From IMG/VR virus record IMGVR_UViG_2910942425_000008, positions 1 through 64,000 of that record: a stretch of DNA of 64,000 bases, one strand, 5' to 3'. This stretch comes from a virus (Duplodnaviria; Caudoviricetes). The notes under the pieces are model-generated. The model was not told where the DNA came from, searched no databases, and saw only the letters and a list, made by a program, of their open reading frames with translations. Positions 1 to 57,118 of this stretch are shown one piece after another; positions within the stretch are counted from its first letter, which is position 1, and each line of letters starts with the position of its first letter. The translations under genes and the position numbers were made by a program.

Positions 1-159
1 GTTTACAACATCTGTATAGTTAAGTTTTAGCTTAAGGGCTGCTTTGGTATCTTCGGGCATGCCTTTGGCGACATAGATTTCTCCGTTACGGCGAAAACCG
101 CAAAGAATAGCCGTTGAAGCGTCTATGATAGCAAAAAGATACTCACTATTCGATATAAT
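1..159 (+). repeat. Direct repeat copy 1 (cut by the window start), shared CotH tail-fibre module
   Basis: 152/159 nt identical to 56558-56716; first 93 nt identical. Confidence 0.97.
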
Positions 160-708
160 ACGTAAGCATTGTGAAGCCTGTAAATCTATATCTTCTTTTT
201 TTACATATTCCCCTAAGTATAACTCAGGGGTAGGGGCTGCTTGTCCTGTGCTAATCCATATTCCATCACTTTTGCATTCATACATGATTCCTGCTACATT
301 AGCATTATCCCCAGCAACAGGAGATGGATGCGCTTCTATCAATGCCTCTTCTGTAGAAAAATATCCTTTATCGTGCTGTTTTGTGTCTTTATAATCTTCA
401 AATTCAGTTTTATCAAGTTTTCCCTCTTTTAAATCTTCTACTTCCGAATTGGTTGTGTTTAATGCAAATTGGTCGGCTTTGGTCGATTTTAATGTGTTAA
501 TATCTTTTCGTACAATTTCTAATTCTTTGTTTTCGGCTTTACTTCTTAGCTTTTTATCAACCTCATCTTCTGTTATAAGATTGCCTAATGGATAAGCCTT
601 ATCATTTCCGACACTATCATAGCCAATAGCATGAAATCCTTCTTTTTGTTCGGTAATTGTTATGTCTGTGATTTCCTTAAATTCCAGATTTTCAATATTT
701 GTTACCAT
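1..708 (-). CDS. Tail fibre/appendage protein, N-terminal 236 aa (runs off the left edge; probably a CotH-domain paralog of 54779-57118)
   Basis: Hand-translated open frame from ATG at 708 (MVTNIENLEFKEIT...) with no stop to position 1; follows Dit; last about 53 codons nearly identical to the CotH gene. Confidence 0.85.
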   Translation of the reverse strand, partial: MVTNIENLEFKEITDITITEQKEGFHAIGYDSVGNDKAYPLGNLITEDEVDKKLRSKAENKELEIVRKDINTLKSTKADQFALNTTNSEVEDLKEGKLDKTEFEDYKDTKQHDKGYFSTEEALIEAHPSPVAGDNANVAGIMYECKSDGIWISTGQAAPTPELYLGEYVKKEDIDLQASQCLRIISNSEYLFAIIDASTAILCGFRRNGEIYVAKGMPEDTKAALKLKLNYTDVVN

Positions 709-717
709 ATTATTATT

Positions 718-1221
718 CTATTTTGTTGTTAATATTTTACCTTGTAATGTGAGAACTTTGCCAAGGGATGATAATACATAAGCCGTAAGAAGGGTGCTTT
801 GCCTGTTGGCCGGATTGGGTTCATTCAACCGTACAGAAAATTTGCCTTCACGAAATCCGATTCCGGATGAAAGGCTTAAAAAACCATTCTCCGGCAGGTA
901 AACTCTATAAATTGTCGAAAGAGGAATTACCTTCAATTCAAATAATCCTTTTCTCATTTCGGCTATAAGAGAATGATATTTATTAAAATAATCTTGTTTT
1001 GAATCACAGGTTATACAAAACATAAGCTGTACATTCCGATCCGCTTGCTTTGGATTCGAGAAAAAGATTTGTTTTCCTGACTGACTACGTGAATTATTCT
1101 CTATATATGCTTTTTGTCCAGCAGGAAGAAGTAAATTATCATACGAATCATCAACCAGCATGGCCGACCATGTTAGCCAGGCATCTTTTCCGTTTATGTA
1201 TAATAGATTGTCTTTTCTCAT
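718..1221 (-). CDS. Distal tail protein (Dit)-like
   Basis: Directly downstream of TMP; YINGKDAW...F...EPNP pattern typical of Bacteroidetes siphophages. Confidence 0.7.
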   Translation of the reverse strand: MRKDNLLYINGKDAWLTWSAMLVDDSYDNLLLPAGQKAYIENNSRSQSGKQIFFSNPKQADRNVQLMFCITCDSKQDYFNKYHSLIAEMRKGLFELKVIPLSTIYRVYLPENGFLSLSSGIGFREGKFSVRLNEPNPANRQSTLLTAYVLSSLGKVLTLQGKILTTK

Positions 1222-1223
1222 GA

Positions 1224-4200
1224 CTAATTAAGCTTTTTGTTTAGTTCACCCATCTTATCATTGATATCATACAACTGCTTGGTATTAGTGTTAATGTCTT
1301 TTAGTTCATAATAAGAATTAATAGCAATATTTCTGTTTTCCTCTATCATACGTTCTATTCGTAAAGAAGATTCATTTAAAGATAGCATCGGGACTGACAT
1401 AGAACTAAAACTTAACTTATCGCTGACAGGTTGGTTCCATTGGGCTATATGTTTTACATTTTCATCTATGGATATTAAACTCATTTGCATAGCTGTGAAA
1501 CGCCCTTCTAAAGCGTCTCCAGTATCTTGTGACATCGTTTCAAATCTTCCGGATGATGCTTGTTGAGATGTTGAATTGTCGTTTAAATCTAATCCTAAAG
1601 TATCTAAAGTAATTCCTAATTTATCACTAGCTTCCTTTATAACCTTATTGAATTCTTCACTCCAGTCTTTTACTGCATTTTTATCTATTTCATCAACAAG
1701 GAATATATCTGTGAGTTTATCATATAATGGTTCTAACGCACCTGCAAGAATCTTATATTTAAATGAAGACAATACAGCCTTTTTTAGCGTATCCTCCGTA
1801 AAGTCTCCCAATTCGGAAACCCCCATCATCATGCTTTCAATGGCCGACATAGCATCACCGAGAAATCCATCGAACGAATTACCTGTAGCAAACTCATCCA
1901 TCTGCTGGCTTAATTCAACAATCTGTTCTCCTAATTGGAGAGTTTCGTCTTTTGCGCTGCTTAATTGTTCAGCCAAATCACCAACTCCTGAAACTCCTGC
2001 AGCAGAAAGTCTTCTTAAGGCTTCCGTAGTATCTATTGTGCCATTTTTCCAATCTTTAAGGACAGGGACTATAGTTTTGCCCCAATTCCCGATTTTTCCT
2101 GCAACACCGTCTGCAAAATCATTATATGCTCCATTCAGAATATCATTTGCTTTTTTATTCAGATTATCAAAATCTTTTTGTGCAGCTAATATATTTTCGT
2201 CCAGAACCTCCGATTGCCTGTTCAGAGCCTCCCATACCGTATAATCCGTATCAGAAATAAAACCTTTCTCAACCAGCCAATACAATGCTTCCAGATTATC
2301 ACGGAAGGCACGGGCATAATCTATTGAGCTTATCAGGTCGTAATTCTGCTGGCGCAGCGAAATATTATATTCTTGCTGCAGTTTTAGCAGTTCACGCTTG
2401 ATTTGAGCTTCTTGTTCTCCCTTATTAAGTATTCCGGATATAAATCCTGAAACGATGCTTAGTCCTGCAGAAGCTGCCCCCAAATAGTCGCCAGAAGCAA
2501 ATGAAGCTATACCTGATACAGCATCACTTAATATACTTAAATCAGTTCCAGTAATTTCACCTAAAGAATTTGCTACCTCAGAAACTATATCTGCTATTTC
2601 TCTTAATTTTTGACCCTCTGTTTTTTTTAATTCTTTATTTAAAATCTTTAATTGGATGTAAGCTTCCCTTAATTGTCTGGCTAATTCATCATTATTTGGG
2701 TCTTGGAATACCTGCTTTTCAAGATTATTAAATATCTTTTTTTGGTCAGATATTTGCTGTTTTAGGGATGCTGCCTGCTTATCTGATTCAAATACATATC
2801 TATCATTTATTAAATCCTGCCATTTCTGATTGTACTGCGCTTCAAATTCAAGTTGTTTTTGAGTAGATTGAAGCCTTACTAGCCGAACTTCCTTATCCCT
2901 ATTATTTGTCAATAACCTCTCGTCCTCAGAGCCTTTTTTAACAAGTTTTAATCGTTCGGTATAATGAGAATTTATATCAGCGATCTGTTGTTGTAACTGT
3001 GAGGCAAAGCGCAAACGTTCTTCCTGAATGAATGTATTATATTCTTTGGATATCTCATTGTTCGCGTTGGCATACGATTTTTTAGCAACATCTTTTAATG
3101 CATTAACCTGCGTTGTTAGAGCTTCATTGCTAAGTTCAGATGGTAACTTAGATTTATCAAATGTAGCAAAATTAAAACCTTCACTTGATCCTGTTTCACT
3201 CACATATATTTGTTTAGCTGTCTCCTGTTGTGCTTTGTATTTATTGGCTTCAAATTCAGCTATAGAAAGAAGCTCTTTTTTATGATTCAGTTCATTTTGC
3301 TTTCGCCGTTTATCGAAGCTGTCTTGCTCAACATCCAATTGCTTTTGTTCCAATTCTAAAGAAGTTTTTATTTGTTCATTGCTTAACTCTTTCTGTTTGT
3401 TTAATAGCCATTGTTGAGCCTCAATACGTTTTTTTGCGGCAGATTCCCCGGATCGTTGAGATTTACCAGAGAAATCCCAAATACCTAATTTTACCTTTGA
3501 TGTATTTAGTTTATTTACCTGTTTTTTCCATTCTTTTGAGCCCTTTTCGGTTTCATCCATTAGCGCTAGAGCATCTTCTGCATCTTTTTTCTCTTTCTCC
3601 CAAAAAGATTTATTTTTTGTAACAGGTTTATTCGAAAGTTTATTTTTTGTATCTTCAATTTTAAATAAAATGTCACCCAACTGATTGTTCAGAGTCACAA
3701 ATAACGGATTGAATTTATTCCATTCATCTTTAACACTACTTATTTGTGGTATCTGCTTTTCAATTAATGATTTTTGATCCTCTAGTTTTTTTAATTGCTC
3801 TTCAAGTACTTTTTTTCGCTCGTATTCTGGCAAAGACATAAGTTCAGCTTCTTTTCTGGCTTCTTCTCTTTTGTCTTTTTCATCTTTCAATAATTTTAAT
3901 GTATTTCTTAACGTATTTCTTACATATTCGGCTGATGCACCTTCAATCTCAAGTTCTTTGCTTATTTCTTTTAAGACAGCTACACTTTCGTTTACTCCCT
4001 TTAATCCTGTTCCGCTACTCGTGCTAAGTTTATCCAGTATTTGAGTATATTTGGTTATAGTTTCATTTATAACATCCCCTGATAGCTCAAAAGCAGATTG
4101 ATCTATTATCTGTTGCTGTTCTTTTAAAGACAGATTCTTAAATTCTGAAAAAGATTTATTCCCTAAATATTTTTGATGTTCTTTTTGTAATTCTTTATAA

Positions 4201-5534
4201 GCGAGTATTTGTTCATGTATAGATTTAGTTTCTGAATTTATAATATTGATTAGTTCAGAAGATTTACTTCCAAGTTCATCTTTTTTTGATTTAGCTTCGT
4301 TTACTATTTTGTTTAGATTATTTTGAGCACTTTCCTGAGCTGTAGTTGCATCATTAAGTGCCCATACAGTAACAACTAATCCAGTTATAGCCGTAGCCAT
4401 TAATACATACGGATTTATTGACATTGTCGCAGTAACAGCTTGCCATATTTTTTGCACTCTGGCAAGTACAGCCCCTAATTGGAATTGTGTTGTAGCTAAT
4501 GACTGAGTAGCTATTGCATTTACGATTAATGCTGTACGATATATTCCATAAGTGGCAACTAATCCGACTAATATTTTACCAACTTTCTCATAGTTTTCAA
4601 CAAGAGTATTTATGCCATCTATAGATTTGTAAATAATACCTTCGCTATCTTTCCCTATCTGATTAAATATAGAATCTATATTATCTTTTAAAGCTTCCAA
4701 TCGACCCCCGATAGATGCAGATTGCTGCTCCATCAATCCTCCATATAAGCCGCCCTGAGCTGTCATGTTTTTGAAAGCCTGCTCAATCTCCTTGAATCCT
4801 ACCTTACCGGCAGATACAAAATCATTTACTTTATCTTTCGAAGTACTGAGAACTTTTGCCAATTCATCATAAATAGGAATACCGCGCCCGGCAAACTGGC
4901 GGATATCCATTAAATAAGCGCGCCCCTGCGTTCTTAGTGTTCCATACAAGTAAACAAGATCATTTAATTGTTGACCTGTACCGGCTGCCACATCTCCGAG
5001 CATAGTCATCTCTTTAATGACAGTTTCAGCCGTTGAGCCGTAAGCAAGAAGCTGTTTTGCTCCTGATGCTGCCGATTGCAATCCGAATGGAGTCTCAGCG
5101 GCAAACTTAGTAAGGTCTTTCATCAAGACGGCTGCTTTCTCTTCGCTTTTCAGCATGGTGCCGAAAGCAATCTCCAGTTGTTGAAACTGATTACGAACAT
5201 TGATGATTTCCGATCCTAAATCTTTTATCTTATCCAGCCCGAAGGTAATACCGGCTAAAGCAGCACCTTTTTTAATATAATTCAATAAACTATTGGAGGC
5301 GTTATCGGTAGCTTTCGATGCCCTGTTTTGCTGCGACACATATTGCTGTATTTCAGTCGTTAACTTGTTGTATCTGATGGTTGATTGCTGCAATTCATTA
5401 TTAAGCCTATCATATAGTCTAGTATTATCTTGCCTTCTCATACCTTGCAAGGTTGCCTTTAGCTCCTCCATCCTCTTCCTAAGGTTAATAACCTCTTGGG
5501 CGTTAGCCTTTATATTGATTGCCGATACTGCCAT
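1224..5534 (-). CDS. Tail tape measure protein (1436 aa)
   Basis: Long helical/coiled-coil protein with a TMP domain (FQQLEIAFGTML...FAAETPF...GIPIY) in the tail operon. Confidence 0.93.
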   Translation of the reverse strand: MAVSAINIKANAQEVINLRKRMEELKATLQGMRRQDNTRLYDRLNNELQQSTIRYNKLTTEIQQYVSQQNRASKATDNASNSLLNYIKKGAALAGITFGLDKIKDLGSEIINVRNQFQQLEIAFGTMLKSEEKAAVLMKDLTKFAAETPFGLQSAASGAKQLLAYGSTAETVIKEMTMLGDVAAGTGQQLNDLVYLYGTLRTQGRAYLMDIRQFAGRGIPIYDELAKVLSTSKDKVNDFVSAGKVGFKEIEQAFKNMTAQGGLYGGLMEQQSASIGGRLEALKDNIDSIFNQIGKDSEGIIYKSIDGINTLVENYEKVGKILVGLVATYGIYRTALIVNAIATQSLATTQFQLGAVLARVQKIWQAVTATMSINPYVLMATAITGLVVTVWALNDATTAQESAQNNLNKIVNEAKSKKDELGSKSSELINIINSETKSIHEQILAYKELQKEHQKYLGNKSFSEFKNLSLKEQQQIIDQSAFELSGDVINETITKYTQILDKLSTSSGTGLKGVNESVAVLKEISKELEIEGASAEYVRNTLRNTLKLLKDEKDKREEARKEAELMSLPEYERKKVLEEQLKKLEDQKSLIEKQIPQISSVKDEWNKFNPLFVTLNNQLGDILFKIEDTKNKLSNKPVTKNKSFWEKEKKDAEDALALMDETEKGSKEWKKQVNKLNTSKVKLGIWDFSGKSQRSGESAAKKRIEAQQWLLNKQKELSNEQIKTSLELEQKQLDVEQDSFDKRRKQNELNHKKELLSIAEFEANKYKAQQETAKQIYVSETGSSEGFNFATFDKSKLPSELSNEALTTQVNALKDVAKKSYANANNEISKEYNTFIQEERLRFASQLQQQIADINSHYTERLKLVKKGSEDERLLTNNRDKEVRLVRLQSTQKQLEFEAQYNQKWQDLINDRYVFESDKQAASLKQQISDQKKIFNNLEKQVFQDPNNDELARQLREAYIQLKILNKELKKTEGQKLREIADIVSEVANSLGEITGTDLSILSDAVSGIASFASGDYLGAASAGLSIVSGFISGILNKGEQEAQIKRELLKLQQEYNISLRQQNYDLISSIDYARAFRDNLEALYWLVEKGFISDTDYTVWEALNRQSEVLDENILAAQKDFDNLNKKANDILNGAYNDFADGVAGKIGNWGKTIVPVLKDWKNGTIDTTEALRRLSAAGVSGVGDLAEQLSSAKDETLQLGEQIVELSQQMDEFATGNSFDGFLGDAMSAIESMMMGVSELGDFTEDTLKKAVLSSFKYKILAGALEPLYDKLTDIFLVDEIDKNAVKDWSEEFNKVIKEASDKLGITLDTLGLDLNDNSTSQQASSGRFETMSQDTGDALEGRFTAMQMSLISIDENVKHIAQWNQPVSDKLSFSSMSVPMLSLNESSLRIERMIEENRNIAINSYYELKDINTNTKQLYDINDKMGELNKKLN

Positions 5535-44620: not shown

Positions 44621-44690
44621 ACTTTGTTTTCTTATTTATTTTATCTTTGTAATTGTAATCGTATTGTTATAAGATTACGATACAAAGGTA

Positions 44691-44734: not shown

Positions 44735-44784
44735 ACGGTTAACTTTATTTAATACTATTCATTTTTTAACTTAAAATTAAGGGT

Positions 44785-45447: not shown

Positions 45448-45472
45448 AACTATAAATATTAAATTAAACGAT

Positions 45473-45873: not shown

Positions 45874-46008
45874 AATTCTAAATATTAAAACAGAAAGCAG
45901 CATACAAATTGGGATTGCATACTACTTTCAAGGTTTAAACTAATTTCTTAATTATTGCAATCGCCCTAATTTATCGTAATGCAAATATAACTATTAATCA
46001 TTAATGCA

Positions 46009-46022
46009 GTGAATTAATTCAC
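46009..46022. promoter_or_regulatory. Third GTGAA-N4-TTCAC operator, upstream of CI
   Basis: GTGAATTAATTCAC, 17 nt before the start codon. Confidence 0.7.
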
Positions 46023-46039
46023 ATTTTAACTATTTAAAT

Positions 46040-46678: not shown

Positions 46679-46689
46679 AAATTAACATT

Positions 46690-47085
46690 ATGAAAAAACT
46701 ATTATTGTTACTTATACTTCCATTATTTTTTTCGTGTGGAGGAGATGATGAACAGGATCAAAACATAACGCCTAACCGAAAATATAAATATGTTATTTAT
46801 AATGATCCTGACTACATTAATAAGTGTGATGTTTATGATATAGTAATAATAAATAATGATGCTTTCGGAAAACTTGTTGATACAGATAAAATTGAGGAAA
46901 TAAAGTTTGGTGAAAAATCGGATACAATATACACGAATGGATGTAATATTTTCTTTACTCATAAATACAAGGATAAAGACGGAAAAGAGCAATATGGACG
47001 GATTAAAAATGATATATTCATTGAGGAAGATTATCCTAATATTATAAGTCTATCCGGATTTCACGATGATAGAAAAAGAAATTAA
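46690..47085 (+). CDS. Lipoprotein co-transcribed with CI
   Basis: MKKLLLLLILPLFFSC lipobox. Confidence 0.75.
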   Translation: MKKLLLLLILPLFFSCGGDDEQDQNITPNRKYKYVIYNDPDYINKCDVYDIVIINNDAFGKLVDTDKIEEIKFGEKSDTIYTNGCNIFFTHKYKDKDGKEQYGRIKNDIFIEEDYPNIISLSGFHDDRKRN

Positions 47086-47107
47086 CCTCATTTATAAATA
47101 TTTCATC

Positions 47108-47530
47108 ATGCTAACACTTTCATTCGGCAAATCTACATCGCCTCGTTATCGCGACGCCGTAAAGCTTGCAGAGAAATTCACCGGGTATAAAAATACAGGA
47201 GGTAAAATATCTGTGTTGCTATCAGTGAAAGAAGTATTTGAGAAGTGGGAGTATTTCAATCAATTGTTTTGGACTGCTGTAGATTGGAAAGAAACAACAT
47301 TATCTTATGAAGATATGACTTATCATTCGCATACGGATAAAACACGTATTTTTTATGCTCTGCAAAATTCACATTGGAAATGGATAAATTATGTAGAACA
47401 AAAGTTATCTTTGCAATTCAATATTTCGGAAGATAATCTTGATTTATCAAAATTGGATACTACGAATATTGATGATAAAACAGCAGATTTGTTGATAGAC
47501 TTCTATAGCATAAAAAAGCAGGGTTTTTAA
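47108..47530 (+). CDS. Hypothetical protein
   Basis: Third gene of the lysogenic operon. Confidence 0.55.
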   Translation: MLTLSFGKSTSPRYRDAVKLAEKFTGYKNTGGKISVLLSVKEVFEKWEYFNQLFWTAVDWKETTLSYEDMTYHSHTDKTRIFYALQNSHWKWINYVEQKLSLQFNISEDNLDLSKLDTTNIDDKTADLLIDFYSIKKQGF

Positions 47531-47545: not shown

Positions 47546-47748
47546 TTTGTTACTTTGAAATATAACTTGTTGATTATGTATATAATACATAGTTCCGGTC
47601 GTGCTACTGGGAAACCCGCCTGGAAAGGCGGGTTTCTTTGTTTATAAAGGGTTTGAGGGTGTTTCTGTTTTCTGAAACTATCTATATTTTGTTACTTTTA
47701 GGACATTTTTTGTTACTAATTTGTTACCTTTGTTTTATTGGTAACAAA
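47546..47748 (+). other. attP-like site: tRNA-3'-end-like core, terminator and integrase arm repeats
   Basis: CCGGTCGTGCTAC 47595-47607; TTTGTTAC at 47546, 47688, 47709, 47720 and inverted at 47741, i.e. on both sides of the core. Confidence 0.7.
47611..47640 (+). terminator. Intrinsic terminator
   Basis: GAAACCCGCC/GGCGGGTTTC perfect 10-bp stem followed by TTTG. Confidence 0.85.
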
Positions 47749-47765
47749 AATCAGTAACACACGGT

Positions 47766-48893
47766 ATGGTTGGATTATCTATAAATTTTATTTTTGATGT
47801 AAAAGGTGTATCTAGTCTTGAAAAGCAGGGCTTGTTACAGATAGTTATAAGGCAAAATAAAACATCTCGGAGGAAATACATATCTACTGGTATCAGATTG
47901 TACAAAAATCAATTCTCAGATAAAAAAGGATTTACCTGTATTAACCATGAAAATGCAAAAGACGTTACGTCTACAGCATGGGAAATGTATAATAAAATAG
48001 AGAAGTTCTGTCTATCTGACAGATGCATAAAATGGGAAGATATAGAAAAATGGGATAAAGATAAAAACGATCTTGACTCCGTTATTAAATTTATTGAATC
48101 GGAGATGAAGTTGCGAAATATGGAATATAACACTTTGAAGGCGCATGTTACTTTGGTGAATAAGTTAAATGACTTCAAGAAGATAAAGATTTTCTCTGAT
48201 CTAACCTATTCCAATATAACAGAGTTTGATAAATACATGCGAGACAAAGGTATTGGAAATGTTTCTATAAATAAAAATCATTCTCTTTTCAATTTGTATA
48301 TCAAAATAGCAATAAACAAGGATTTGATAGAGAAAAATCCATATAATAAATTCACTCCGCCCAAAGGGAAAAATAACGATCCTGTTTTTCTCACACAAGA
48401 TGAAGTGGAAAATATTAAAAAAATATCAGGGCTTAACGATAAACTTGAAAAGGTCAAAGATTTGTTTATTTTCCAATGCTACACCGGTATGGCATATATT
48501 GATATGCAGGGTTTCTCAAAAAATAGTATTCAAGTTGTAGACGAACAAGAAGTCATTAGGAGTAGTCGAACCAAGACGGATGAATCTTTTATTTTATTAT
48601 TTCTGCCTGATGCAAAAAAAATAGCTGAAAAGTATAATTACAATTTACCTAAAATAAGTAATCAAAAATACAATGACTATTTAAAATTATTGATTGCTCA
48701 TCCCAATATTAATATAAATAAAAAGGTGACCTCTCACACCGCCAGACACACATTTGCCACATATCTACTAAATAAAGGAATACCAATAGAAACAGTATCC
48801 AAAACCTTGGGGCATGCAAGCATAAAGCAGACACAGTTATATGCCAGATTGTTAGGCAAGAAGGTTATAGATGACATGAAGAAATTATTATAG
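47766..48893 (+). CDS. Tyrosine integrase
   Basis: YTGM(R-like), SHTARHTFAT, LGHA, Y in TQLYA. Confidence 0.93.
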   Translation: MVGLSINFIFDVKGVSSLEKQGLLQIVIRQNKTSRRKYISTGIRLYKNQFSDKKGFTCINHENAKDVTSTAWEMYNKIEKFCLSDRCIKWEDIEKWDKDKNDLDSVIKFIESEMKLRNMEYNTLKAHVTLVNKLNDFKKIKIFSDLTYSNITEFDKYMRDKGIGNVSINKNHSLFNLYIKIAINKDLIEKNPYNKFTPPKGKNNDPVFLTQDEVENIKKISGLNDKLEKVKDLFIFQCYTGMAYIDMQGFSKNSIQVVDEQEVIRSSRTKTDESFILLFLPDAKKIAEKYNYNLPKISNQKYNDYLKLLIAHPNININKKVTSHTARHTFATYLLNKGIPIETVSKTLGHASIKQTQLYARLLGKKVIDDMKKLL

Positions 48894-48950: not shown

Positions 48951-49391
48951 CTAAAACATCTTTTTTAAATACCTGATACCTATATAACCTAAAACGATCA
49001 AAATTAAAACCCTCCCGCACCATACTTGAAAGCCCTGAAAAGGTGTAAGCCTGTTCACTTCCTTCTCAATCTCTACAGGATATGGAACTTGTATGCTATC
49101 TTTAATAAATATCGAATCCCTCATTAGTTTATCCCTATACAAGTATCTGTACTTATTCAGAAAAACAGTATCATTTTTTGAATAAATAAAAACAGAATCC
49201 ATTACATGAATTGAATCTCGATGCCATCTATCAATATATTCTTTTTCCGTTTTTGTCGTTTCTATCGGTAAAGGAACATATTTTGTTTTGCACCCGGATA
49301 ATCCAACAATTAGAAGCAATAATGATAATATTATTATTGCTATAGTATTTACCTTTGATTGATCTGCGTTATTCTTCATATCTATAGTCAT
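48951..49391 (-). CDS. Unimolecular spanin-like lipoprotein
   Basis: LSGC lipobox plus C-terminal TM helix; follows the endolysin. Confidence 0.65.
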   Translation of the reverse strand: MTIDMKNNADQSKVNTIAIIILSLLLLIVGLSGCKTKYVPLPIETTKTEKEYIDRWHRDSIHVMDSVFIYSKNDTVFLNKYRYLYRDKLMRDSIFIKDSIQVPYPVEIEKEVNRLTPFQGFQVWCGRVLILIVLGYIGIRYLKKMF

Positions 49392-49890
49392 TTAAACGGT
49401 TCAACCATCCTTTTAAAAATACCTTTTGTGATGGATTGTGCTGTGCAATACTTTCAAAATGCTGTTTTCTTCTATCCCAAAGCTTTTGAAACAATTCCTT
49501 TTGATCCGGGTATTCATTCACAGCTGCAAGTGTCTTTTTCCCTACTATGCCATCAGCAACCACGCCAAGTACCTGTTGAGGGTATTTTATACCATAGCTA
49601 CCAGAACCCCACACCCAATCTACAAGAAGATTGGCTATTGACTGGTTGTTTATCAGATCGGCTTTCCACTTATCCCAATAAAGGGTTTTTAGCACATCCA
49701 TCCATTCTTCATTGGATATATTTTTCAAGTCATTTACCGATGGTTGGGGTAAGCCTTTTAATTTTCGGTAGTAAGTACATGTGCCGATGGTAATCCCCTT
49801 ATTTGTTGCACCACCCTTATCATTTGGATGATTCACAAAACCACCTTCCCATTTTAGAATTTTAGGCACTAAAAATTCAATCTTTGCCAT
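49369..49890 (-). CDS. Endolysin, glycoside hydrolase family 108 with PG-binding domain
   Basis: WEGGFVNHPNDKGGATNKGIT; FLKGWLNRL. Confidence 0.92.
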   Translation of the reverse strand: MAKIEFLVPKILKWEGGFVNHPNDKGGATNKGITIGTCTYYRKLKGLPQPSVNDLKNISNEEWMDVLKTLYWDKWKADLINNQSIANLLVDWVWGSGSYGIKYPQQVLGVVADGIVGKKTLAAVNEYPDQKELFQKLWDRRKQHFESIAQHNPSQKVFLKGWLNRLNDYRYEE

Positions 49891-50389
49891 GATCTTCTTC
49901 TGTTTTTTTGTGAGAGTGATTTTTATTCTTCTTGATTACTTCCGATAAAGCAGTTAATAAATCATCCTTATTTTCAATCAAGGTTACAATATCATCTAGG
50001 TTTTTGGATAACCTAATTTTTTCTTTGTCTTCTGCCTTTTCCAACACTGACCGTCCTTCAACATATATCAAGTATATGCTTGCTAAAATTGTTACAAAAG
50101 GTATTGGTGGAATAGGTGCATCAAATGATGTTATAACAAAAGTTATTATAACATCAAGCATAAAAGCAAAAAATAGGGCTGTGTAATACAAATTTACCTT
50201 TGAAATGGTTCTTTTCAAACCATAGGATGTTCTTGCTTCACCTCTTATTTTTGCTTTCATATAACCGCTTCTTAGGTCAATTGCAATGGCAGCAAAAACA
50301 AACAACCACATGATTGCAACAATGATAAGTTTAATTTTTAGTGATGAATAATCACCTTCTAAAATTGATTTTATAAACAATAATTTCAT
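49877..50389 (-). CDS. Holin
   Basis: Three TM segments; AIDLRSG...RTSYGLKRTISK. Confidence 0.8.
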   Translation of the reverse strand: MKLLFIKSILEGDYSSLKIKLIIVAIMWLFVFAAIAIDLRSGYMKAKIRGEARTSYGLKRTISKVNLYYTALFFAFMLDVIITFVITSFDAPIPPIPFVTILASIYLIYVEGRSVLEKAEDKEKIRLSKNLDDIVTLIENKDDLLTALSEVIKKNKNHSHKKTEEDHGKD

Positions 50390-50797: not shown

Positions 50798-53104
50798 TTA
50801 TGATATATTTAACGCTTTTCCATTCCTAAATAATCTACCACTTTGATTAGGATCAGAAGAAGGCAATCCATTCATACTAACTTCTAAATTATAACTTCCT
50901 TCACCATTATCATTTGGTATATAATATCTACTTGCTGAGAATGACGGTTGTGATTGATCCTCCCTATTAAAGAATCCCACATTTTCAGGGTTCAAATAGG
51001 ACATATATCCGGTTGAATTATCTAAAAATCTAATTTCATACCCTGTTATATCTAATACATAAGCAGGTTCGTCCCCGGTTTTCCATCCAAAATGATTTAA
51101 AAGAATTCTTGGTAAAAAGAATTTTTCGCCATCATCACCCTCATCTTCCTCGAAATACATATGAATCAAAGTTTGCCCTATACTATTTATAAACTTTAAA
51201 CTCCTATCTTCAGGATCAATCTCTATCCTATTCCCATTCTTATTACTCTCAAATTTCCCCGATAATAAAAGATTCCCTAATGCATCCCAGATAATATTCT
51301 GGTTTGCCAACCACCCCGAACCATCTACTTTAAACCCAATTGGAGTTTTTCCTTCCGCAGCATCATCAAGTGGTCCACCGAAATAAGCGACTACATCATC
51401 CGGCTCTATTGCTGCTCCGTTTATGCCTGCTACCTCTTTCCATTCATCACCAACGACAGCGCCCAGACGTATAAGGGTCGTCAATAATAGACCTTTGTCA
51501 ATCATGGTTTCGTTTTCCAGGGCAATACGAAGATAGTTTAACGCCTTTATGTTTTTTAAGTTCCCGTTAACAGCTTTCATTGCTTCCAGATATTGAACAT
51601 CAGCTTCTTTTTTATTTCCCTCAATGCTGTTTTCAATTCGGGCAAGACGCTTGTAGTCCATTACATTTCCTACAACATATTCATCCTTCGCAGTTATCGG
51701 ATATTTCCGGTACCCATATACCCGCGATAATTTTTCGCCCGATTCGAAGATCATGCTAACCATCCTTACCCGTTGGCCAATCTGTAAGTCAAGGTCATTT
51801 TCAAGCCGGAAGACAGGATTTACAATACAGGTATAAGTTGCTGTATCGGTAGCGATAGTTTTCAAATATTCCCTTGCAGCATCTTCCAGTTCCTTCTCTG
51901 CTTCCGGAATGTATTGATCGCCCACAAGAGAAATATCGAAACCATATAACACATATTCATCCCCTATCTTCGGCTTCAATATTTCATTTGGAATATAATT
52001 GTCGCCTTCAGTAATAACGATAATCTCAAATTCATCTGTTTTATCACTATATGAAAGTTCAAAATCACGACCAGCCAACCAGCTGTTATTACCGAATTGG
52101 AGCATCAATGTTTCGTTTGCCAGTATATATTCAGACTTAAACTGTAACCCCGCATCTTTAATATAATAGATTATAAATGGATCGCCGTTTTCATCTGTTT
52201 TCTCGACCTGTCGCAAGCTGGTAACATTACCGATACGTTTGGGGTAAATATCTTCGAATATTTTTACCCTTTCGATTATATCAAGCCTGTTCATACCGGG
52301 GAAGGCATCAACATAATCGCCCACTTCTGCCGGAAGCCGCAACTTCTTTTGAACAATAGCGTCTATTACTTCATCATCGCTTATCTGCCGGTAATTTTTA
52401 GGGATATTACGTGTGGAGCCAAAAGCAAACAGTCGTGTACAATAATCTTCCTCACTTTCATTTGCTTTTTGAATATCGATTAATGATACTTCACGGCGTA
52501 AAGTAACTATATCCGAACTTTCACGCTGATATACCAGGTTTATAGTTTTAAGCTCGTAATCCACATACCATTCCGCTTTGAATGCTTCGGCAATATCAGT
52601 CAGACCATCAAATACATTCTGGCTGTTGAAAGTAATGTTTTGCAGATCCGTTGGTTCAATAATACCAACAGTCCATTCTTCATTCAGATAGTTACTTATA
52701 TTATCAGCTGCTATCTCAAGAAATTGCTGGGCTTTGCCATACAATACCCATTCCACTTCCTTATAGCCCTGCATGGTGTAGAACATAACACAATCAAGAA
52801 AGAACATCTCCGAAGCCTCGAATTTCAACTCATATTTATATAATTGTGTATTTACCTCTTTCGGCTTGCAATCTTCCCTTAATCTATACTTTATACCATT
52901 ATAGTTGATATAGTCTGCACGTTTAAAAAATTCTCTGGTTGGGTAATCAAATGAGAATTGGATGTAATGTTCACCCATTACCTCATTGCTTACAACCATA
53001 TCGTCCGGCATGGCAATAGATGCTTTTGGCTTTATTGCTTTACTATCATACACCCAAAGGACATATTCTTTAGGTGTATGCTTTATGTTACCTACTTCAA
53101 TCAT
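50798..53104 (-). CDS. Baseplate hub/minor tail protein (Tal-like)
   Basis: 768 aa; TRLFAFGSTRNIP, FEDIYPKRIG motifs of Bacteroidetes siphophage tail proteins. Confidence 0.75.
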   Translation of the reverse strand: MIEVGNIKHTPKEYVLWVYDSKAIKPKASIAMPDDMVVSNEVMGEHYIQFSFDYPTREFFKRADYINYNGIKYRLREDCKPKEVNTQLYKYELKFEASEMFFLDCVMFYTMQGYKEVEWVLYGKAQQFLEIAADNISNYLNEEWTVGIIEPTDLQNITFNSQNVFDGLTDIAEAFKAEWYVDYELKTINLVYQRESSDIVTLRREVSLIDIQKANESEEDYCTRLFAFGSTRNIPKNYRQISDDEVIDAIVQKKLRLPAEVGDYVDAFPGMNRLDIIERVKIFEDIYPKRIGNVTSLRQVEKTDENGDPFIIYYIKDAGLQFKSEYILANETLMLQFGNNSWLAGRDFELSYSDKTDEFEIIVITEGDNYIPNEILKPKIGDEYVLYGFDISLVGDQYIPEAEKELEDAAREYLKTIATDTATYTCIVNPVFRLENDLDLQIGQRVRMVSMIFESGEKLSRVYGYRKYPITAKDEYVVGNVMDYKRLARIENSIEGNKKEADVQYLEAMKAVNGNLKNIKALNYLRIALENETMIDKGLLLTTLIRLGAVVGDEWKEVAGINGAAIEPDDVVAYFGGPLDDAAEGKTPIGFKVDGSGWLANQNIIWDALGNLLLSGKFESNKNGNRIEIDPEDRSLKFINSIGQTLIHMYFEEDEGDDGEKFFLPRILLNHFGWKTGDEPAYVLDITGYEIRFLDNSTGYMSYLNPENVGFFNREDQSQPSFSASRYYIPNDNGEGSYNLEVSMNGLPSSDPNQSGRLFRNGKALNIS

Positions 53105-53524: not shown

Positions 53525-54759
53525 GCTCCTAAATTTATTATTGTTACTCCTTTAGCCTGTAATGTTTCGACCGCTGCATCTGATGCAATTGTGCGTGTGC
53601 CGTAATACGACATGATTTTCAGCCACGAACTTTCGGGCAAGGTAGGTGCAAAATCACAAGTTGCCATATCGTTAAGAAACCTGTCTACATCACCTGATGT
53701 AGCAAATCTGACAGCTTCCAACGCCATAATATATGTCCGTGAAGCCAGTTTGCCCGACCATGTAAATACCGATTTTCCGTTTTGATTCGAGAAAAATGTA
53801 AGGTTGTTGCTTGTAAACTGGCTTATATCCCCATATACGCCATCAACACCTTTCAAACCCATTGTATAACCTACTGTTGCTGCACATTTATGAAATACGG
53901 ATATATCGCCTGTAATACCTTTACAGTTCTCAAAATTGACATTGCTTAGGTTCAAGCCCGCAGGAATATGTCCTGTCAATACGGACAAGTCACCTGCAAT
54001 CTTCGTGTTTGGAACGGAGAACAAATAAAGGTTGTGATGTATGCCAGTAGTAAGACTTCCCGCCACATCATCAAAATTAGCCCGGCACGCTATCTGAAGA
54101 TTGCCCAGATATAGTTTGTTCAATATCCGTGTAGCATCGCCCGTTAGCGGTGTCATATCCTTATATATGGCTGACGATGCACCAGAACGGGTTATCATAA
54201 AGTCCGTCAGGTTAGAATAAGTAGAGAAGCCGGACAAGTCGCCGCCTATTGCCGTCTGTAAGGCTACAAAATGTTCGTTCCTTATATTGGCAAATATGGA
54301 TATATCGCCTTTCAGCCCGATTGCAGAACGCACGGAACGCAAATCATTGTATTTCAAAGCATCTATATCAAAGTCAATATAAGCGGGCATGGAGCTTATA
54401 GAGTTATTGGCGTTGGTAAAAAAATAAGTAGTCAGCGTTCCTAGCCCTATTATTCTGAACTTATTGTTCAATGAAATATATTCCGCTTCGGTAGCTTTGA
54501 AATATATGCTCACTTCCGCGCCCCAGTTTGCCGTACCCGATACCGTTTTGCCGATAACAGTCGTAAGGTCACTCTTATAAAAATTGCCGTCACCTTTCAA
54601 TGTGAACGTATAAGCACCATTCAGCCTGAAAGTCATTTTCACAAAATCGTTTTGTGTATTGTGGCTTCCTGTAGGGACAACCATAAAACGGGCTTCGTTC
54701 AATTTTAACAAATCAGTTGTCACCGATTCAGTTAATTTTATTTGTAAACATTCTGCCAT
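53521..54759 (-). CDS. LRR-like repeat tail-fibre/receptor-binding candidate
   Basis: Repeated (I/L)xGD(I/L)S units; MAECLQIKL N-terminus. Confidence 0.6.
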   Translation of the reverse strand: MAECLQIKLTESVTTDLLKLNEARFMVVPTGSHNTQNDFVKMTFRLNGAYTFTLKGDGNFYKSDLTTVIGKTVSGTANWGAEVSIYFKATEAEYISLNNKFRIIGLGTLTTYFFTNANNSISSMPAYIDFDIDALKYNDLRSVRSAIGLKGDISIFANIRNEHFVALQTAIGGDLSGFSTYSNLTDFMITRSGASSAIYKDMTPLTGDATRILNKLYLGNLQIACRANFDDVAGSLTTGIHHNLYLFSVPNTKIAGDLSVLTGHIPAGLNLSNVNFENCKGITGDISVFHKCAATVGYTMGLKGVDGVYGDISQFTSNNLTFFSNQNGKSVFTWSGKLASRTYIMALEAVRFATSGDVDRFLNDMATCDFAPTLPESSWLKIMSYYGTRTIASDAAVETLQAKGVTIINLGA

Positions 54760-54778
54760 ATTATTGTATTTTTTAATT

Positions 54779-57118
54779 TTAATTGTAATTGAAATATAAG
54801 TCCAGGTTCACGAGTTTAGCCGTTACCCATTTTTCGATGCGTTCAATCGAATTGTAAAAGCCGAGCGCATTGGGTACGTTATCGTATAGCTTTGTTAAAG
54901 GCGCATTGCCCGTTGATGGATCTATACATTCAAAAAGGAAAGTTTGGTATTTGCATTTATCGCCTACATTGTAAGCAGTTGCGTTGTTATACTCTGTGCC
55001 GTTATCCCACTCATCGCCGACAAGCTTCCAATATGCTTCATTAATATAGGATTTGCGATATGAAGGTGTTTCGCCCCATTTCTCAAACTCCTTTTTATAC
55101 ATGTCCGAACCTATCATTTCAACCCACTCATTAAAGAGATTGACAACGTTTTCAGCCGTAAATATCCCTTTATCCCTTAACTCCTTATAGCGGGCTTGAA
55201 TTTCGGGTTTATATAATTGGTTAAGCCAATAAGACGGCAAACGGTTTTCGAGCCCAAGAATAGCGCTCAAACTGTTACGTTTTACCATATTGCCCCGCCA
55301 GTGCATACCGAACACACTATCATGGTCGTAAAAAGTAGGACACCATTTAAGCCCATCCCATGTACACCATATCCAATTTTTGGCGAAACCGTCAAAATTG
55401 TAGACAAATTGAGCGTGTACGAAATAATCAATAAAGAAAGGCACATCGAAGTATTGTTCAAATTCGGCTTTGGTAGTAGACCCCGAAAAAGTAGGCAAGG
55501 CATTACTGAGCCTCACAATATTATCTTTCACCTCTTTTGAAAAAACGTCCGTATTTGACAGTTCTTTCGGATAGTCGCCGTTATACTCATTTCCGTTTAT
55601 GTCTATCAAGTCTTTCGGGTTGCGTACTTCAAATTCAGACCATACGATATTGTTTTGCCAAAATGTACTTAAAGATAAATTGCCGTCCAGAATGATATGT
55701 TTTGAATCACCTTTATTGGCTGCATAATTATCGCGATGCTTCTTAAGGTTGAGAGCATACAGGCCGTAAAATTCTTCATTGACGTATATAACAACGGGAA
55801 AGCCATCAGGATGGCATAAAGCCTCGTTTACTATATCAGCTTTCAATATGCCTGTGCCATCGTATGCAGTTGCAGACGGGTAAACGCTTTGATAAGGCTT
55901 TCTTTCCCCAACCGGGCGTGTTTGGTACATTTGTTCGCATAGCTTGTAACTTACGTTACATTGCCCCCTGAAAGCGTCTATATAATATTTCTTTATATGG
56001 AAGCTGTCTTGTGCTACCCAGTTCCCAAACTTGATTTTACAGTCGGTAAAGTCTACAGATAGGTTTTTTACCATGTATGCCATTGACGATGTGCCCTGTG
56101 CATTCAGAATAATGGGCTTCCTGAAATAGTTACCGTCCTTATCCCAATATTCCAATATTGCGTGTATATCGTCAAATTTACCCGATGGCATCCTTGAAAC
56201 AATAAGGTTTATCCGCGCCGCAACTCTCGGTATAGGTATGGCAATATCGGATTGTTCCGACCAGTCGCCTGTACCTTTGCCCGGAGAAAAACCGCTGTCT
56301 ATTAAATCCTGTTTAAGTTGGGTTATGGCTTTGACAGATAGTTTTATCCTGTCATTTATGGTTGCTGTTTCAGTCTCAAAGGTACATTCCCACTTTGTAC
56401 CGTCCTTACGGCGATACGATAAAATCCTGTTTTCAGCGTCCAGCGTCACTTCTATTCGCCCCTCGTTATCGGTTACAACGGATAGTATTCTCGATATTGC
56501 GCCGATAGCGGCGTTCACGGCTGTGTCGGATATAGGTTTGCCCGTGTTGCCTAATACGTTTACAACATCTGTATAGTTAAGTTTTAGCTTAAGGGCTGCT
56601 TTGGTATCTTCGGGCATGCCTTTGGCGACATAGATTTCTCCGTTACGGCGGAAACCGCAAAGGATAGCCGTTGATGTGTCTGTGATGGCGAAAAGATACT
56701 CACTATTCGATATAATGGATAATTGAGCATACACGGCGGGTATATCTTCGGATATTGCTACACCTGTATCAGACCACGAATCGTTTTTATACTCCCATAT
56801 AGTGCCAGTATCTAAAATACCCGCTTTGTCGCCCGCTTGTGGTTGTCGCACCGTACCGCTAGCAATATCCGCCTCCAACTTTTCAAGCGTGGAAAAATAG
56901 CCGAGATTGTGTTTGTTTTCTTCTTTTACGGCTTCCAAATCCGCATGAGAGGCTTTATTTTGTTCTAAATCATTGAGGGCATCGGTTAGACCGAGTATTT
57001 GCGTTTGCGGTAATCTTTCCGATTTATGCCAAAAAGACTTCCATGAATCCGCAAATTGCTTTTCTGTAGGCTCTTTTCCTTTTTTATAATATGATAATAT
57101 TGTAAGTAAATCTATCAT
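54779..57118 (-). CDS. Tail-fibre protein with a C-terminal CotH-like kinase domain
   Basis: N-terminal FWHKSE fibre anchor; DGFPVVIYVNEEFYGLY, DGFAKNW, FYDHDSVFG kinase-like motifs. Confidence 0.75.
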   Translation of the reverse strand: MIDLLTILSYYKKGKEPTEKQFADSWKSFWHKSERLPQTQILGLTDALNDLEQNKASHADLEAVKEENKHNLGYFSTLEKLEADIASGTVRQPQAGDKAGILDTGTIWEYKNDSWSDTGVAISEDIPAVYAQLSIISNSEYLFAITDTSTAILCGFRRNGEIYVAKGMPEDTKAALKLKLNYTDVVNVLGNTGKPISDTAVNAAIGAISRILSVVTDNEGRIEVTLDAENRILSYRRKDGTKWECTFETETATINDRIKLSVKAITQLKQDLIDSGFSPGKGTGDWSEQSDIAIPIPRVAARINLIVSRMPSGKFDDIHAILEYWDKDGNYFRKPIILNAQGTSSMAYMVKNLSVDFTDCKIKFGNWVAQDSFHIKKYYIDAFRGQCNVSYKLCEQMYQTRPVGERKPYQSVYPSATAYDGTGILKADIVNEALCHPDGFPVVIYVNEEFYGLYALNLKKHRDNYAANKGDSKHIILDGNLSLSTFWQNNIVWSEFEVRNPKDLIDINGNEYNGDYPKELSNTDVFSKEVKDNIVRLSNALPTFSGSTTKAEFEQYFDVPFFIDYFVHAQFVYNFDGFAKNWIWCTWDGLKWCPTFYDHDSVFGMHWRGNMVKRNSLSAILGLENRLPSYWLNQLYKPEIQARYKELRDKGIFTAENVVNLFNEWVEMIGSDMYKKEFEKWGETPSYRKSYINEAYWKLVGDEWDNGTEYNNATAYNVGDKCKYQTFLFECIDPSTGNAPLTKLYDNVPNALGFYNSIERIEKWVTAKLVNLDLYFNYN
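56558..56716 (+). repeat. Direct repeat copy 2, inside the CotH-domain gene
   Basis: Matches 1-159 with 7 mismatches; encodes IISNSEYLFAI...KLKLNYTDVVN in both genes. Confidence 0.97.

What the first reader, a model, noticed from the sequence alone, without database searches (positions are those of the whole stretch)
1..56716. Complete siphophage with an internal attP, joined to a second phage through a shared tail-fibre module
Seen: 1-159 repeats at 56558-56716 (152/159). The tail genes leave position 1 and resume at 56716 (CotH C-terminus, LRR protein, Tal, lysis, integrase). The att core has arm repeats and phage genes on both sides. Inference: a 56,557-bp circle did not integrate at its tRNA att site but is joined by a single crossover inside the CotH gene of a contractile-tail prophage, giving two reciprocal chimeric fibre genes. 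An assembly join through the repeat would look the same.
Basis: partly seen in the sequence, partly recalled or inferred. Interest (0 to 1): 0.7.

Follow-up and report, generated by a model that had tools for sequence, protein, structure and literature searches.

The report
Circular-form siphophage joined to myophage prophage
A complete temperate phage genome in its unintegrated (attP) form is attached in this record to a second, contractile-tailed prophage through a tail-fibre cassette that both phages carry, and the record stops just as it re-enters that shared stretch, so the join is more likely an assembly walk than a real insertion.

Summary
Bases 1-159 repeat at 56558-56716 (152/159; 1-93 exact). 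A complete 56.6-kb temperate siphophage (S) wraps around the window start, and its attP is intact.

Comparative evidence supports this:
- A sipho relative has the same order: Dit, S-type fibre N-terminus, 768-aa protein, holin, lysin, integrase.
- The closest integrase relatives sit beside an intact tRNA-Arg (attL).
- An S-like repressor gene abuts the identical core next to host genes in another genome (attR).

The right-hand block (M) belongs to a contractile-tailed prophage lineage common in Dysgonomonadaceae.

The repeat starts at a universal module boundary of a CotH fibre family. "M N-terminus + CotH body" already exists at 87% identity in another Dysgonomonas strain, so it is not a chimera made here.

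The second "reciprocal" gene is not observable. The source's own protein is only 237 aa, which implies that the 188,640-base contig starts about 2 bases left of the window, 95 bases into the exact shared stretch. That is the signature of a de Bruijn graph path re-entering a visited node.

No reads could be obtained. An assembly walk through a collapsed shared cassette (about 0.5) and a true homologous-recombination cointegrate (about 0.3) remain unseparated. This is ordinary modular fibre exchange, and interest is modest.

The parts
1..159 (-). S copy of the first 53 codons of the shared fibre module (repeat copy 1). The source protein adds one more Val, so the contig probably starts about 2 nt further left.
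160..708 (-). Sipho-type N-terminal adaptor of the fibre gene, immediately after Dit. Homologous N-termini follow Dit in L020 (40%) and occur in P0003 (33%) with other C-termini.
718..5534 (-). Distal tail protein (718-1221, phrog_6305) and tape measure protein (1224-5534, phrog_9959) of phage S
5538..20509 (-). S morphogenesis block: tail and head genes, major head protein 8230-9306, MuF-like 15311-16234, portal 17339-18829, TerL 18841-20016, TerS 19982-20509
30184..44128 (-). S early/replication block: DnaB-like helicase 31092-32564, replication initiator, two methyltransferases, helicase, NinG/Rap, exonuclease-like, Erf-like annealing protein 39219-39881, DGR reverse transcriptase 40085-41233 with TR/VR repeats 41206-41891
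44152..47530 (+). Lysogeny-side genes: HTH regulator 44152-44598, HTH+S24 (CI/LexA-like) repressor 46040-46678, and two unknown genes 46690-47530 that are absent from the G042 attR arm
47547..47747 (+). attP: a core of about 50 nt (about 47590-47640) that matches the 3' end of tRNA-Arg(CCT) plus the following hairpin, with TTGTTAC arm-type repeats on both sides
47766..48893 (+). Tyrosine integrase. 73-74% identical homologues lie about 170 bp downstream of intact tRNA-Arg(CCT) in Dysgonomonas genomes.
48951..50389 (-). S lysis cassette: holin 49877-50389, GH108 + PG_binding_3 lysin 49369-49890, 146-aa protein. L020 has the same three at 95%, 87% and 60%.
50798..53104 (-). 768-aa Tal-position protein of the S lineage: 73% to L020, and directly after Dit in L022-L026
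53104..54759 (-). Cassette companions: 84-aa (53104-53358), 66-aa (53324-53524) and 412-aa (53521-54759) genes. The 412-aa and 66-aa genes follow the CotH gene in most of the 18 IMG/VR relatives, and the 84-aa gene does so in L068.
54779..56557 (-). CotH fibre body (aa 188-779 of the 779-aa protein). This is the only copy in the record and the presumed collapsed or shared region.
56558..56716 (-). M copy of the module start (repeat copy 2). The module boundary at aa 134 is shared by the whole family.
56717..57118 (-). Myo-type N-terminal adaptor. It follows the collar fibre in M-like prophages L064-L067 and is 87% identical in P0008 of Dysgonomonas sp. 521.
57125..64000 (-). Late genes of prophage M: collar fibre 57125-57967, 165/286/98-aa baseplate-region genes, its own Amidase_2 lysin 60050-60463 and holin 60447-60896, hub-like 61930-62946, DUF6046 63035-63643

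Best explanation
The window holds two phages of a Dysgonomonas-like host.

Phage S (bases 1-56557, closed through the repeat) is a complete temperate siphophage of about 56.6 kb, recorded in its circular, unintegrated form. Its attP has both arms and a core copied from the 3' end of a tRNA-Arg, and it lies between the repressor-side genes and the integrase.

Phage M (56717 onward) is a contractile-tailed prophage that continues to the right into a 188.6-kb chromosomal contig.

Both phages carry the same receptor-binding cassette: a CotH fibre body plus small companion genes. Each places it behind its own lineage-specific N-terminal adaptor, which docks the fibre to a sipho tail tip or to a myo baseplate. 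This is ordinary modular fibre exchange, and S's own Erf-type recombinase could drive it.

The two cassette copies are so alike that the assembly holds only one. The assembler walked from M's adaptor into the shared cassette, out into S's downstream genes and once around the S circle. It stopped when S's adaptor led back into the node it had already used, 95 exact bases in.

On this reading the M-to-S adjacency is a graph path, not a demonstrated molecule. S exists mainly as free circular or concatemeric DNA (induced, replicating or in a carrier state).

Shown: the gene content, the circular closure, the attP form, the module boundary, and that each adaptor is native to its lineage.
Inferred: the contig edge, the collapse of two copies, and the assembler's walk.
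For: S is complete and wraps:
- L020 has TMP, Dit (49%), an S-type fibre N-terminus (40%), the 768-aa homologue (73%), holin (95%), lysin (87%), the 146-aa protein (60%) and an integrase on the opposite strand.
- L022-L026 place the 768-aa homologue right after Dit.

attP:
- There is no tRNA in the window.
- All 10 integrase relatives scanned lie next to an intact tRNA, and for the three closest it is tRNA-Arg(CCT). The window aligns only to its 3' end plus the hairpin.
- In G042 an S24-repressor homologue is followed by the identical core, the hairpin and then host genes (OMP, PriA, TonB), which is an attR.
- The arm repeats are clustered.

M lineage: 21 of 169 family genomes carry it, with conserved order up to the M-type N-terminus, and L066 has a sheath.

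Shared module:
- The two N-termini are about 33% identical, then 49/51 identical.
- 14 of 18 IMG/VR relatives and more than 1,100 proteins align from about aa 134 onward.
- P0008 is 87% identical across the boundary.

One copy only: the 779-aa cluster has 1 member and the next best hit is 48% identical.

Contig edge:
- The source protein is 237 aa, i.e. 236 plus Val, and no 414-2000-aa version exists.
- The contig is 188,640 nt.
- 93 + 2 = 95 exact nt. Another family assembly (G042) shows contig ends that overlap by exactly 95 nt.

Precedent: in Dysgonomonas sp. 521 two different N-termini share this module, and both contigs break inside it.
Against: - No reads, depth or mate information could be obtained, so the walk is inferred rather than seen.
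- A conservative assembler should break at a two-in, two-out repeat instead of crossing it once. Crossing it may mean that read pairs really link M's adaptor to S's downstream genes.
- An intact attP inside a long chromosomal contig is also what a homologous-recombination cointegrate predicts.
- The contig edge is deduced from a one-residue difference and from the window tiling, not observed.
- No S-type N-terminus joined to a full CotH body has been found anywhere else.
Confidence: 0.5

Rival explanations
1. True cointegrate. The circular S genome entered the chromosome by a single homologous crossover between its own CotH cassette and that of the resident M prophage, possibly helped by S's Erf/exonuclease pair, and not by Int at a tRNA attB. 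The chromosome then reads M adaptor - cassette - S - S adaptor - cassette - rest of M - host. The two cassette copies collapse in a short-read assembly, so the contig ends at the second copy.
For: - attP is intact and contiguous within a record that belongs to a 188,640-nt contig.
- The contig crosses the shared region once without a break, as if supported by read pairs.
- Coding is seamless from 57967 to 50798.
- No intact tRNA with exactly this 3' end was found in 169 family genomes, so a matching attB may be missing from the host.
- S encodes an Erf-like annealing protein.
- Homologous recombination with a resident prophage is a discussed route to tandem prophages (PMC9934374), and relaxed recombination by phage recombinases is cited in PMC7305329 (De Paepe et al. 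2014).
Against: - The second cassette copy and the rest of M are not in the record.
- Neither fibre gene needs a crossover to explain it, because M adaptor + CotH pre-exists in another strain.
- Such cointegrates are rare, unstable between direct repeats, and would disrupt neither phage visibly.
- The contig end 95 nt into the repeat is equally expected from a free circle.
- No read evidence.
Confidence: 0.3
2. The fibre gene at the left really stops after 237 codons and the contig continues leftward. S would then be a fixed, rearranged or truncated prophage lying beside M. The repeat would be just the conserved adaptor-proximal segment of two independent fibre genes, with no circle at all.
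For: - The source protein is 237 aa and could be complete.
- In the M copy the codon after the Val is TTA (Leu), one substitution from a stop.
- L021 shows the conserved segment alone on another kind of fibre.
Against: - It requires the window (and the 76,671-nt piece) to begin by chance 3 nt before a gene end.
- It would leave S without a fibre body while every other S module is intact.
- S-lineage genes (768-aa, lysis, int) lie at 48.9-53.1 kb, exactly where circular closure puts them.
- attP is intact with no attL or attR.
Confidence: 0.08
3. Tandem or concatemeric S copies integrated next to M (attL - S - attP - S - attR type polylysogeny), with the M link arising elsewhere.
For: An internal attP flanked by phage genes is the hallmark of tandem lysogens (PMC9934374).
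Against: - There is no attL, attR or tRNA anywhere in 64 kb.
- M adjoins S in the fibre gene, not at an att site.
Confidence: 0.05

Closest known systems
Modular tail-fibre exchange between unrelated phages (P2/Mu/lambda/T-even fibre mosaics; Haggard-Ljungquist et al. 1992; from my own knowledge)
   Same: A receptor-binding C-terminal body is shared at high identity between phages of different tail types, behind lineage-specific N-terminal attachment parts. There is a sharp mosaic joint at a domain boundary.
   Different: The shared body here is a CotH-domain protein with conserved small companion genes, in Dysgonomonas-type Bacteroidales phages. The same boundary (about aa 134) is reused by more than 1,100 database proteins.
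tRNA-targeting tyrosine-integrase temperate phages (attP carries a copy of the tRNA 3' end)
   Same: The integrase lies next to attP. The core equals the tRNA 3' end plus the terminator hairpin, with arm-type repeats on both sides. Relatives are integrated beside intact tRNA genes.
   Different: The site is seen here in the unrecombined attP form inside a record tied to a chromosomal contig. The core differs at 2 positions from the tRNA-Arg(CCT) of the closest relatives.
Tandem prophages, or phage integration by homologous recombination with a resident prophage (Mycobacterium abscessus prophiT36-2a/b, PMC9934374; lambda insertion into cryptic prophage homology, from my own knowledge)
   Same: Two different prophages lie adjacent with shared sequence segments, and homologous recombination with a resident prophage is a discussed route.
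   Different: In those cases both junctions were sequenced and the att sites were attL/attR-type hybrids. Here only one junction is in the record, attP is untouched, and the second copy is missing.
Circular-contig or 'lollipop' signature of de Bruijn graph assemblers (a contig end repeats an earlier k-mer-length stretch; from my own knowledge)
   Same: The record ends an exact 93 (+2 inferred) nt into a stretch already present internally. Another family assembly shows 95-nt contig overlaps.
   Different: The overlap is with an internal position, not with the other contig end, so the path has a 20-kb+ stem (M and host) attached to the circle.

Membership tests
attP of a tRNA-targeting tyrosine integrase | Tyrosine integrase gene adjacent to the site | tested here: met
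   47766-48893 matches phrog_1 integrase at E 5e-35. The site lies 120-220 nt upstream.
attP of a tRNA-targeting tyrosine integrase | Core identical or near-identical to the 3' end of a host tRNA, without the tRNA 5' half | tested here: met
   The window aligns to the last ~20 nt of tRNA-Arg(CCT) plus the hairpin in L027-L029, with 2 mismatches in the acceptor strand. ARAGORN finds no tRNA in the window. An intact tRNA with exactly this end was not found in 169 family genomes.
attP of a tRNA-targeting tyrosine integrase | Integrated relatives show attL (tRNA + int arm) and attR (other arm + host) | tested here: met
   attL-type: all 10 integrase relatives scanned sit beside an intact tRNA. attR-type: G042 has an S24-repressor homologue, the identical core, then host genes.
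attP of a tRNA-targeting tyrosine integrase | Arm-type repeats on both sides of the core | tested here: met
   TTGTTAC occurs at 47547 (left arm) and at 47689, 47710, 47721 and 47741 (inverted) on the right arm. Binding was not tested.
Campbell-type cointegrate by homologous recombination | Two full direct copies of the homology flanking the inserted circle | not testable with these tools
   Only 159 (+2-3) nt of the second copy are in the record. No second copy is annotated in the collection.
Campbell-type cointegrate by homologous recombination | The recipient element (M) resumes beyond the second copy | not testable with these tools
Campbell-type cointegrate by homologous recombination | Reads span both junctions at chromosomal depth | not testable with these tools
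   No sequencing run was listed.
Assembly path through a collapsed inter-phage repeat | Contig terminates inside the repeat, by an exact k-mer-length overlap | tested here: inconclusive
   93 nt are exact in the window. The source protein is one residue longer, which implies about 95 nt. G042 shows 95-nt overlaps. The edge itself is inferred, not seen.
Assembly path through a collapsed inter-phage repeat | Different depth of the circle and the stem | not testable with these tools
   No reads.
Modular tail fibre (N-terminal adaptor + exchangeable body) | Each N-terminus is specific to its virion lineage | tested here: met
   The S-type follows Dit in L020. The M-type follows the collar fibre in L064-L067 with other C-termini, and 10+ family genomes have the M-type N-terminus on 826-876-aa ORFs.
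Modular tail fibre (N-terminal adaptor + exchangeable body) | The body is shared, with a conserved junction | tested here: met
   49/51 aa are identical after the junction. Relatives align from aa 134-136, and 83% query coverage is seen in nearly all top hits.
CotH (PF08757) | Pfam match above the gathering score | tested here: met
   63.5 bits against a cut-off of 23.8, aa 433-685. Kinase activity was not tested.
Siphovirus Dit/Tal tail-tip module | Dit then Tal directly after the tape measure | tested here: inconclusive
   Dit-like phrog_6305. The 768-aa protein scores below the Pfam Prophage_tail threshold (16.5 against 31.3) but occupies the Tal position in L022-L026. Here the fibre cassette is interposed, as in L020.

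The most novel reading that the evidence does not exclude
S is physically inserted in the fibre gene of prophage M by a single homologous crossover in the shared CotH cassette. A temperate phage with a working integrase and an intact attP would then be lysogenising through another prophage's receptor-binding gene, perhaps because its host lacks the matching tRNA attB, and using its own Erf-type recombinase. This would be a natural phage-in-phage cointegrate between a siphovirus and a myovirus.
Probability: 0.3. Interest if true: 0.55.

Novelty: new member of a known kind. Interest (0 to 1): 0.3.

Why it matters
What is secure is a clean example of one receptor-binding cassette (a CotH body plus companion genes) used by a siphovirus and a myovirus of the same Dysgonomonas-type host, each through its own N-terminal adaptor. 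The junction is reused across more than a thousand database proteins. That is useful for host-range prediction and for annotating Bacteroidales phage fibres, but it is the known principle of modular fibre exchange.

The case is also a practical warning. Co-resident phages that share such cassettes break or mis-join short-read assemblies; the same break is seen in Dysgonomonas sp. 521. A 'prophage' of 76 kb with two terminases and two portals should therefore not be taken at face value.

If the join were physical, it would document lysogeny by homologous recombination into a resident prophage in nature, with an unused attP. That is uncommon and worth a PCR.

Tried and rejected
Routes that were closed or empty:
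- No whole genome is held for the window.
- An exact 47-mer from 275-321 and a 42-mer from the shared stretch were absent from viral, genome and metagenome contigs.
- The look-up of sequencing runs: none was listed.
- Megablast of 1-25000 against the phage collection gave no match. A second query was one base too long and was not repeated.
- A nucleotide search of 50700-57200 in 169 family genomes gave only 65-72% fragments.
- The scan's own index has no look-alike windows.

Ideas dropped:
- I first thought the record was a 76,671-nt contig starting at base 1, from the 12,671 offset of the other window. I revised this when the proteins turned out to lie on a 188,640-nt contig and the source protein was 237 aa rather than 236 aa. 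The best fit now is a piece cut from the contig's left end, starting at the first in-frame codon.
- The similar length (about 75 kb) of three IMG/VR contigs that carry the cassette is coincidence, because their flanks share no genes with the window.
- The search for an intact tRNA ending in the exact core gave 4 matches against about 10 for the reversed control, none of them in a tRNA.
- 'LRR' for the 412-aa protein was not confirmed.
- GC content (cassette 41%, M late genes 40-42%, S tail genes 36%) hints that the cassette is compositionally M-like, but it cannot decide physical linkage.
- Reasoning from assembler behaviour, on whether a path may cross a two-in, two-out repeat once, proved inconclusive.

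Full report
**Observation.** Bases 1-159 and 56558-56716 are a direct repeat, 152/159 identical, with a spacing of 56,557. Bases 1-93 are exact. All seven mismatches lie at 94-133 (five synonymous, two codons changed). Past base 159 the ungapped identity falls to 28/100. The repeat abuts window base 1, so the window cannot show how long it really is.

**Layout.** Almost everything is on the minus strand. Reading from high to low coordinates:
- DUF6046, a hub-like protein, a holin plus Amidase_2 pair, three conserved baseplate-region genes and a collar-domain fibre (63643->57125).
- A 779-aa CotH-domain protein (57118->54779; Pfam CotH 63.5 bits).
- Genes of 412, 66 and 84 aa, then a 768-aa protein, a holin, a GH108 lysin and a 146-aa protein (to 48951).
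- On the plus strand, a tyrosine integrase (47766-48893) preceded by a 236-bp non-coding region. Further left lie an HTH+S24 repressor-like gene (46040-46678) and an HTH regulator.
- The minus strand then resumes with a DGR reverse transcriptase, Erf, exonuclease-like, NinG/Rap, helicases, two methyltransferases, a replication initiator and DnaB.
- Next come TerS, TerL, portal, MuF, major head protein, tail genes, a 1436-aa tape measure and a Dit-like protein.
- Last is a 236-codon open frame that runs off base 1.

**The left and right parts belong to one siphophage (S).**
- IMG/VR relative L020 has the order TMP, Dit (49%), a fibre with the same N-terminus type (40%), the 768-aa homologue (73%), holin (95%), GH108 lysin (87%), the 146-aa homologue (60%) and an integrase on the opposite strand.
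- Five further relatives (L022-L026) place the 768-aa homologue directly after Dit, and L025 and L026 also share the head and tail genes.
- So the genes at 48.9-53.1 kb are the continuation of the tail module that leaves the window at base 1. Closing the sequence through the repeat gives a coherent 56.6-kb temperate siphophage with every expected module.

**The att site is in attP form.**
- The quoted motif is unique, at 47595-47607, and ARAGORN finds no tRNA in 64 kb.
- Eighteen integrase relatives were found in bacterial genomes. The three closest (73-74%) are from two Dysgonomonas genomes and a Bacteroidetes MAG.
- In all ten relatives scanned, the integrase lies roughly 170-290 bp downstream of an intact tRNA, and for the three closest it is tRNA-Arg(CCT).
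- The window aligns with those loci only over the last ~20 nt of the tRNA and the hairpin that follows. The acceptor strand has two differences, and upstream the window has AT-rich phage DNA instead of the tRNA body.
- In family genome G042, a 58% homologue of the S24 repressor-like gene ends 63 nt before the identical core and hairpin. The sequence then continues into host genes: an outer-membrane beta-barrel protein, PriA and TonB. That is an attR.
- Relatives therefore show attL and attR, while the window shows the two phage arms joined.
- Five of the window's fifteen TTGTTAC heptamers lie within 201 nt on both sides of the core (binomial 9e-10).
- An intact tRNA with exactly this 3' end was not found in 169 family genomes.

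**The right-hand block (M) is a different, contractile-tailed lineage.**
- Homologues of the 286-aa protein occur in 21 of 169 Dysgonomonadaceae genomes.
- Four fetched loci (L064-L067) keep the order hub..., 98-aa, 286-aa, 165-aa, collar fibre, then a fibre whose first 64-134 residues match the N-terminus of the 779-aa protein. Each then carries a different C-terminus, and nothing downstream matches any window gene.
- In L065 the fibre is followed by an acyltransferase, an ATPase and a GH76 gene, so it lies at or near the prophage end.
- L066 has a tail sheath (phrog_907) and a tube-like gene upstream of a short tape measure.
- No sheath lies inside the window, so 'contractile' is shown for the lineage, not for this copy.

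**What the repeat is.**
- The two fibre N-termini are homologous but diverged: about 33% identity over S aa 74-185 against M aa 32-136. They then become 49/51 identical.
- That switch point is a general module boundary. Fourteen of 18 IMG/VR relatives align with the 779-aa protein from aa 134-138 onward. More than 1,100 database proteins match at 42-48% over 83% of the query, with total lengths from 694 to 1246 aa.
- Most relatives carry the 412-aa and 66-aa genes after it, so it is a mobile cassette.
- At least ten family genomes have the M-type N-terminus on ORFs with other bodies.
- A partial protein of Dysgonomonas sp. 521 (P0008) is 87% identical to the 779-aa protein over all its 293 residues, straight across the boundary. 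'M adaptor + CotH body' is therefore an established gene, not a chimera created in this genome.
- The cassette's downstream end overlaps the start of the S-lineage 768-aa gene by one base. Somewhere between aa 293 of the CotH gene and 53104 the sequence passes from M-native to S-native without a seam. The simplest reading is that both phages own a near-identical cassette and the record holds one copy.

**Where the record ends.**
- The window's proteins lie on a single NCBI contig of 188,640 nt.
- The truncated 236-aa product is not in the collection, but a 237-aa protein from that contig is. It is 100% identical plus one final Val.
- The M copy also has Val (GTA) at that position, followed by Leu-Gly-Asn.
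- No 414-2000-aa protein with this N-terminus exists in the collection, and the 779-aa protein's 90% cluster has one member.
- The scan's other window on this piece is offset by 12,671, which is what two-window tiling of a 76,671-nt piece would give.
- The most economical reading is an inference. The contig starts two bases left of the window, since a partial GT- codon is unambiguously Val. The piece was cut from the contig's left end at the first in-frame codon. The fibre gene is simply truncated by the contig edge.
- The contig then runs 93 + 2 = 95 exact bases into the shared stretch. In family genome G042, two contig ends overlap by exactly 95 nt. That is the kind of vertex overlap a de Bruijn graph assembler leaves, which makes the same explanation plausible here.

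**Interpretation.** The record has the topology of a stem (host and M) entering a cycle (S) through a shared node and stopping on re-entry. Two physical situations give this graph:
- *(a) Free S.* S is free circular or concatemeric DNA and M has its own cassette copy. Only one module copy is assembled. The same break occurs in Dysgonomonas sp. 521, where two different N-termini share the module and both contigs end in it. Cointegrates are rare. Neither fibre gene needs a crossover to be explained.
- *(b) Cointegrate.* S is inserted into M by one homologous crossover in the cassette. The contig crosses the shared region once rather than breaking. An intact attP sits in a record tied to a chromosomal contig. 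No matching attB tRNA was found in the family. S carries an Erf-type recombinase. Homologous recombination with a resident prophage is a discussed route to tandem prophages (PMC9934374), and phage recombinases are known to recombine with prophages (De Paepe et al. 2014, as cited in PMC7305329).
- I put (a) near 0.5 and (b) near 0.3. The rest goes to a real stop after codon 237 with the contig continuing leftward, or to tandem arrays.
- Reads would decide, and none could be listed.

**Comparison and novelty.** The attP fits the tRNA-targeting tyrosine-integrase pattern on every feature that could be tested. The fibre architecture is the classical adaptor-plus-exchangeable-body mosaic, here with a CotH body shared between a siphovirus and a myovirus of one host family. 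Both are new members of known kinds. The cointegrate, the only unusual claim, is not demonstrated.

Noticed in passing
window 40085-42194: DGR: a reverse transcriptase (phrog_1423, E 1e-129) with one 77-nt template-like repeat (41206-41282) and two diverged copies (41389-41465 at 75%, 41815-41891 at 81%) inside two small paralogous ORFs (131 and 152 aa), not in a fibre gene. L025 has a 47% RT homologue.
   Followed up: partly
window 25508-25609: Two identical 36-nt direct repeats separated by 30 nt, between convergent genes. This is CRISPR-like geometry with no cas gene in the window.
   Followed up: no
window 11798-11996 and 29964-30162: Internal duplication within phage S: about 200 nt at 78-92% identity, spaced 18,166 apart, each covering a 65-aa ORF and its upstream region.
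   Followed up: no
window 60050-60896: Prophage M carries its own holin (Phage_holin_4_1) and Amidase_2 lysin in the middle of the baseplate/fibre operon. The record therefore has two lysis cassettes of different lysin types (GH108 in S).
   Followed up: partly
window 61856-61908 and 62990-63040: A 51-nt inverted repeat (78% complementary, containing TGTGCCAAT motifs) brackets the hub-like gene 61930-62946. It could be a regulatory or invertible element; not examined.
   Followed up: no
window 48951-49391; L067 9805-10089; L068 5015-5290: The 146-aa gene at the end of S's lysis cassette has homologues (54-66%) in the lysis regions of an M-like prophage and of a third phage type. Lysis genes are therefore exchanged between these lineages too.
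   Followed up: no
window 46690-47530: Two genes of unknown function sit between the repressor-like gene and attP. They are absent from the corresponding arm in G042, where the repressor gene ends 63 nt from the core, so they are likely morons at the prophage end.
   Followed up: partly
L080 (G042:C33) and L079 (G042:C14): Two contigs of another Dysgonomonadaceae assembly overlap by exactly 95 nt at an attR-like site of an S-like prophage. The 2,681-nt contig may mark excision heterogeneity or a repeat.
   Followed up: partly
L067 17913-19952: Downstream of an M-like prophage's fibre lie reverse-strand genes that include DUF3164 and a KaiC-like ATPase. DUF3164 suggests a Mu-like (transposable) early region, from my own knowledge; whether M is transposable was not tested.
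   Followed up: no
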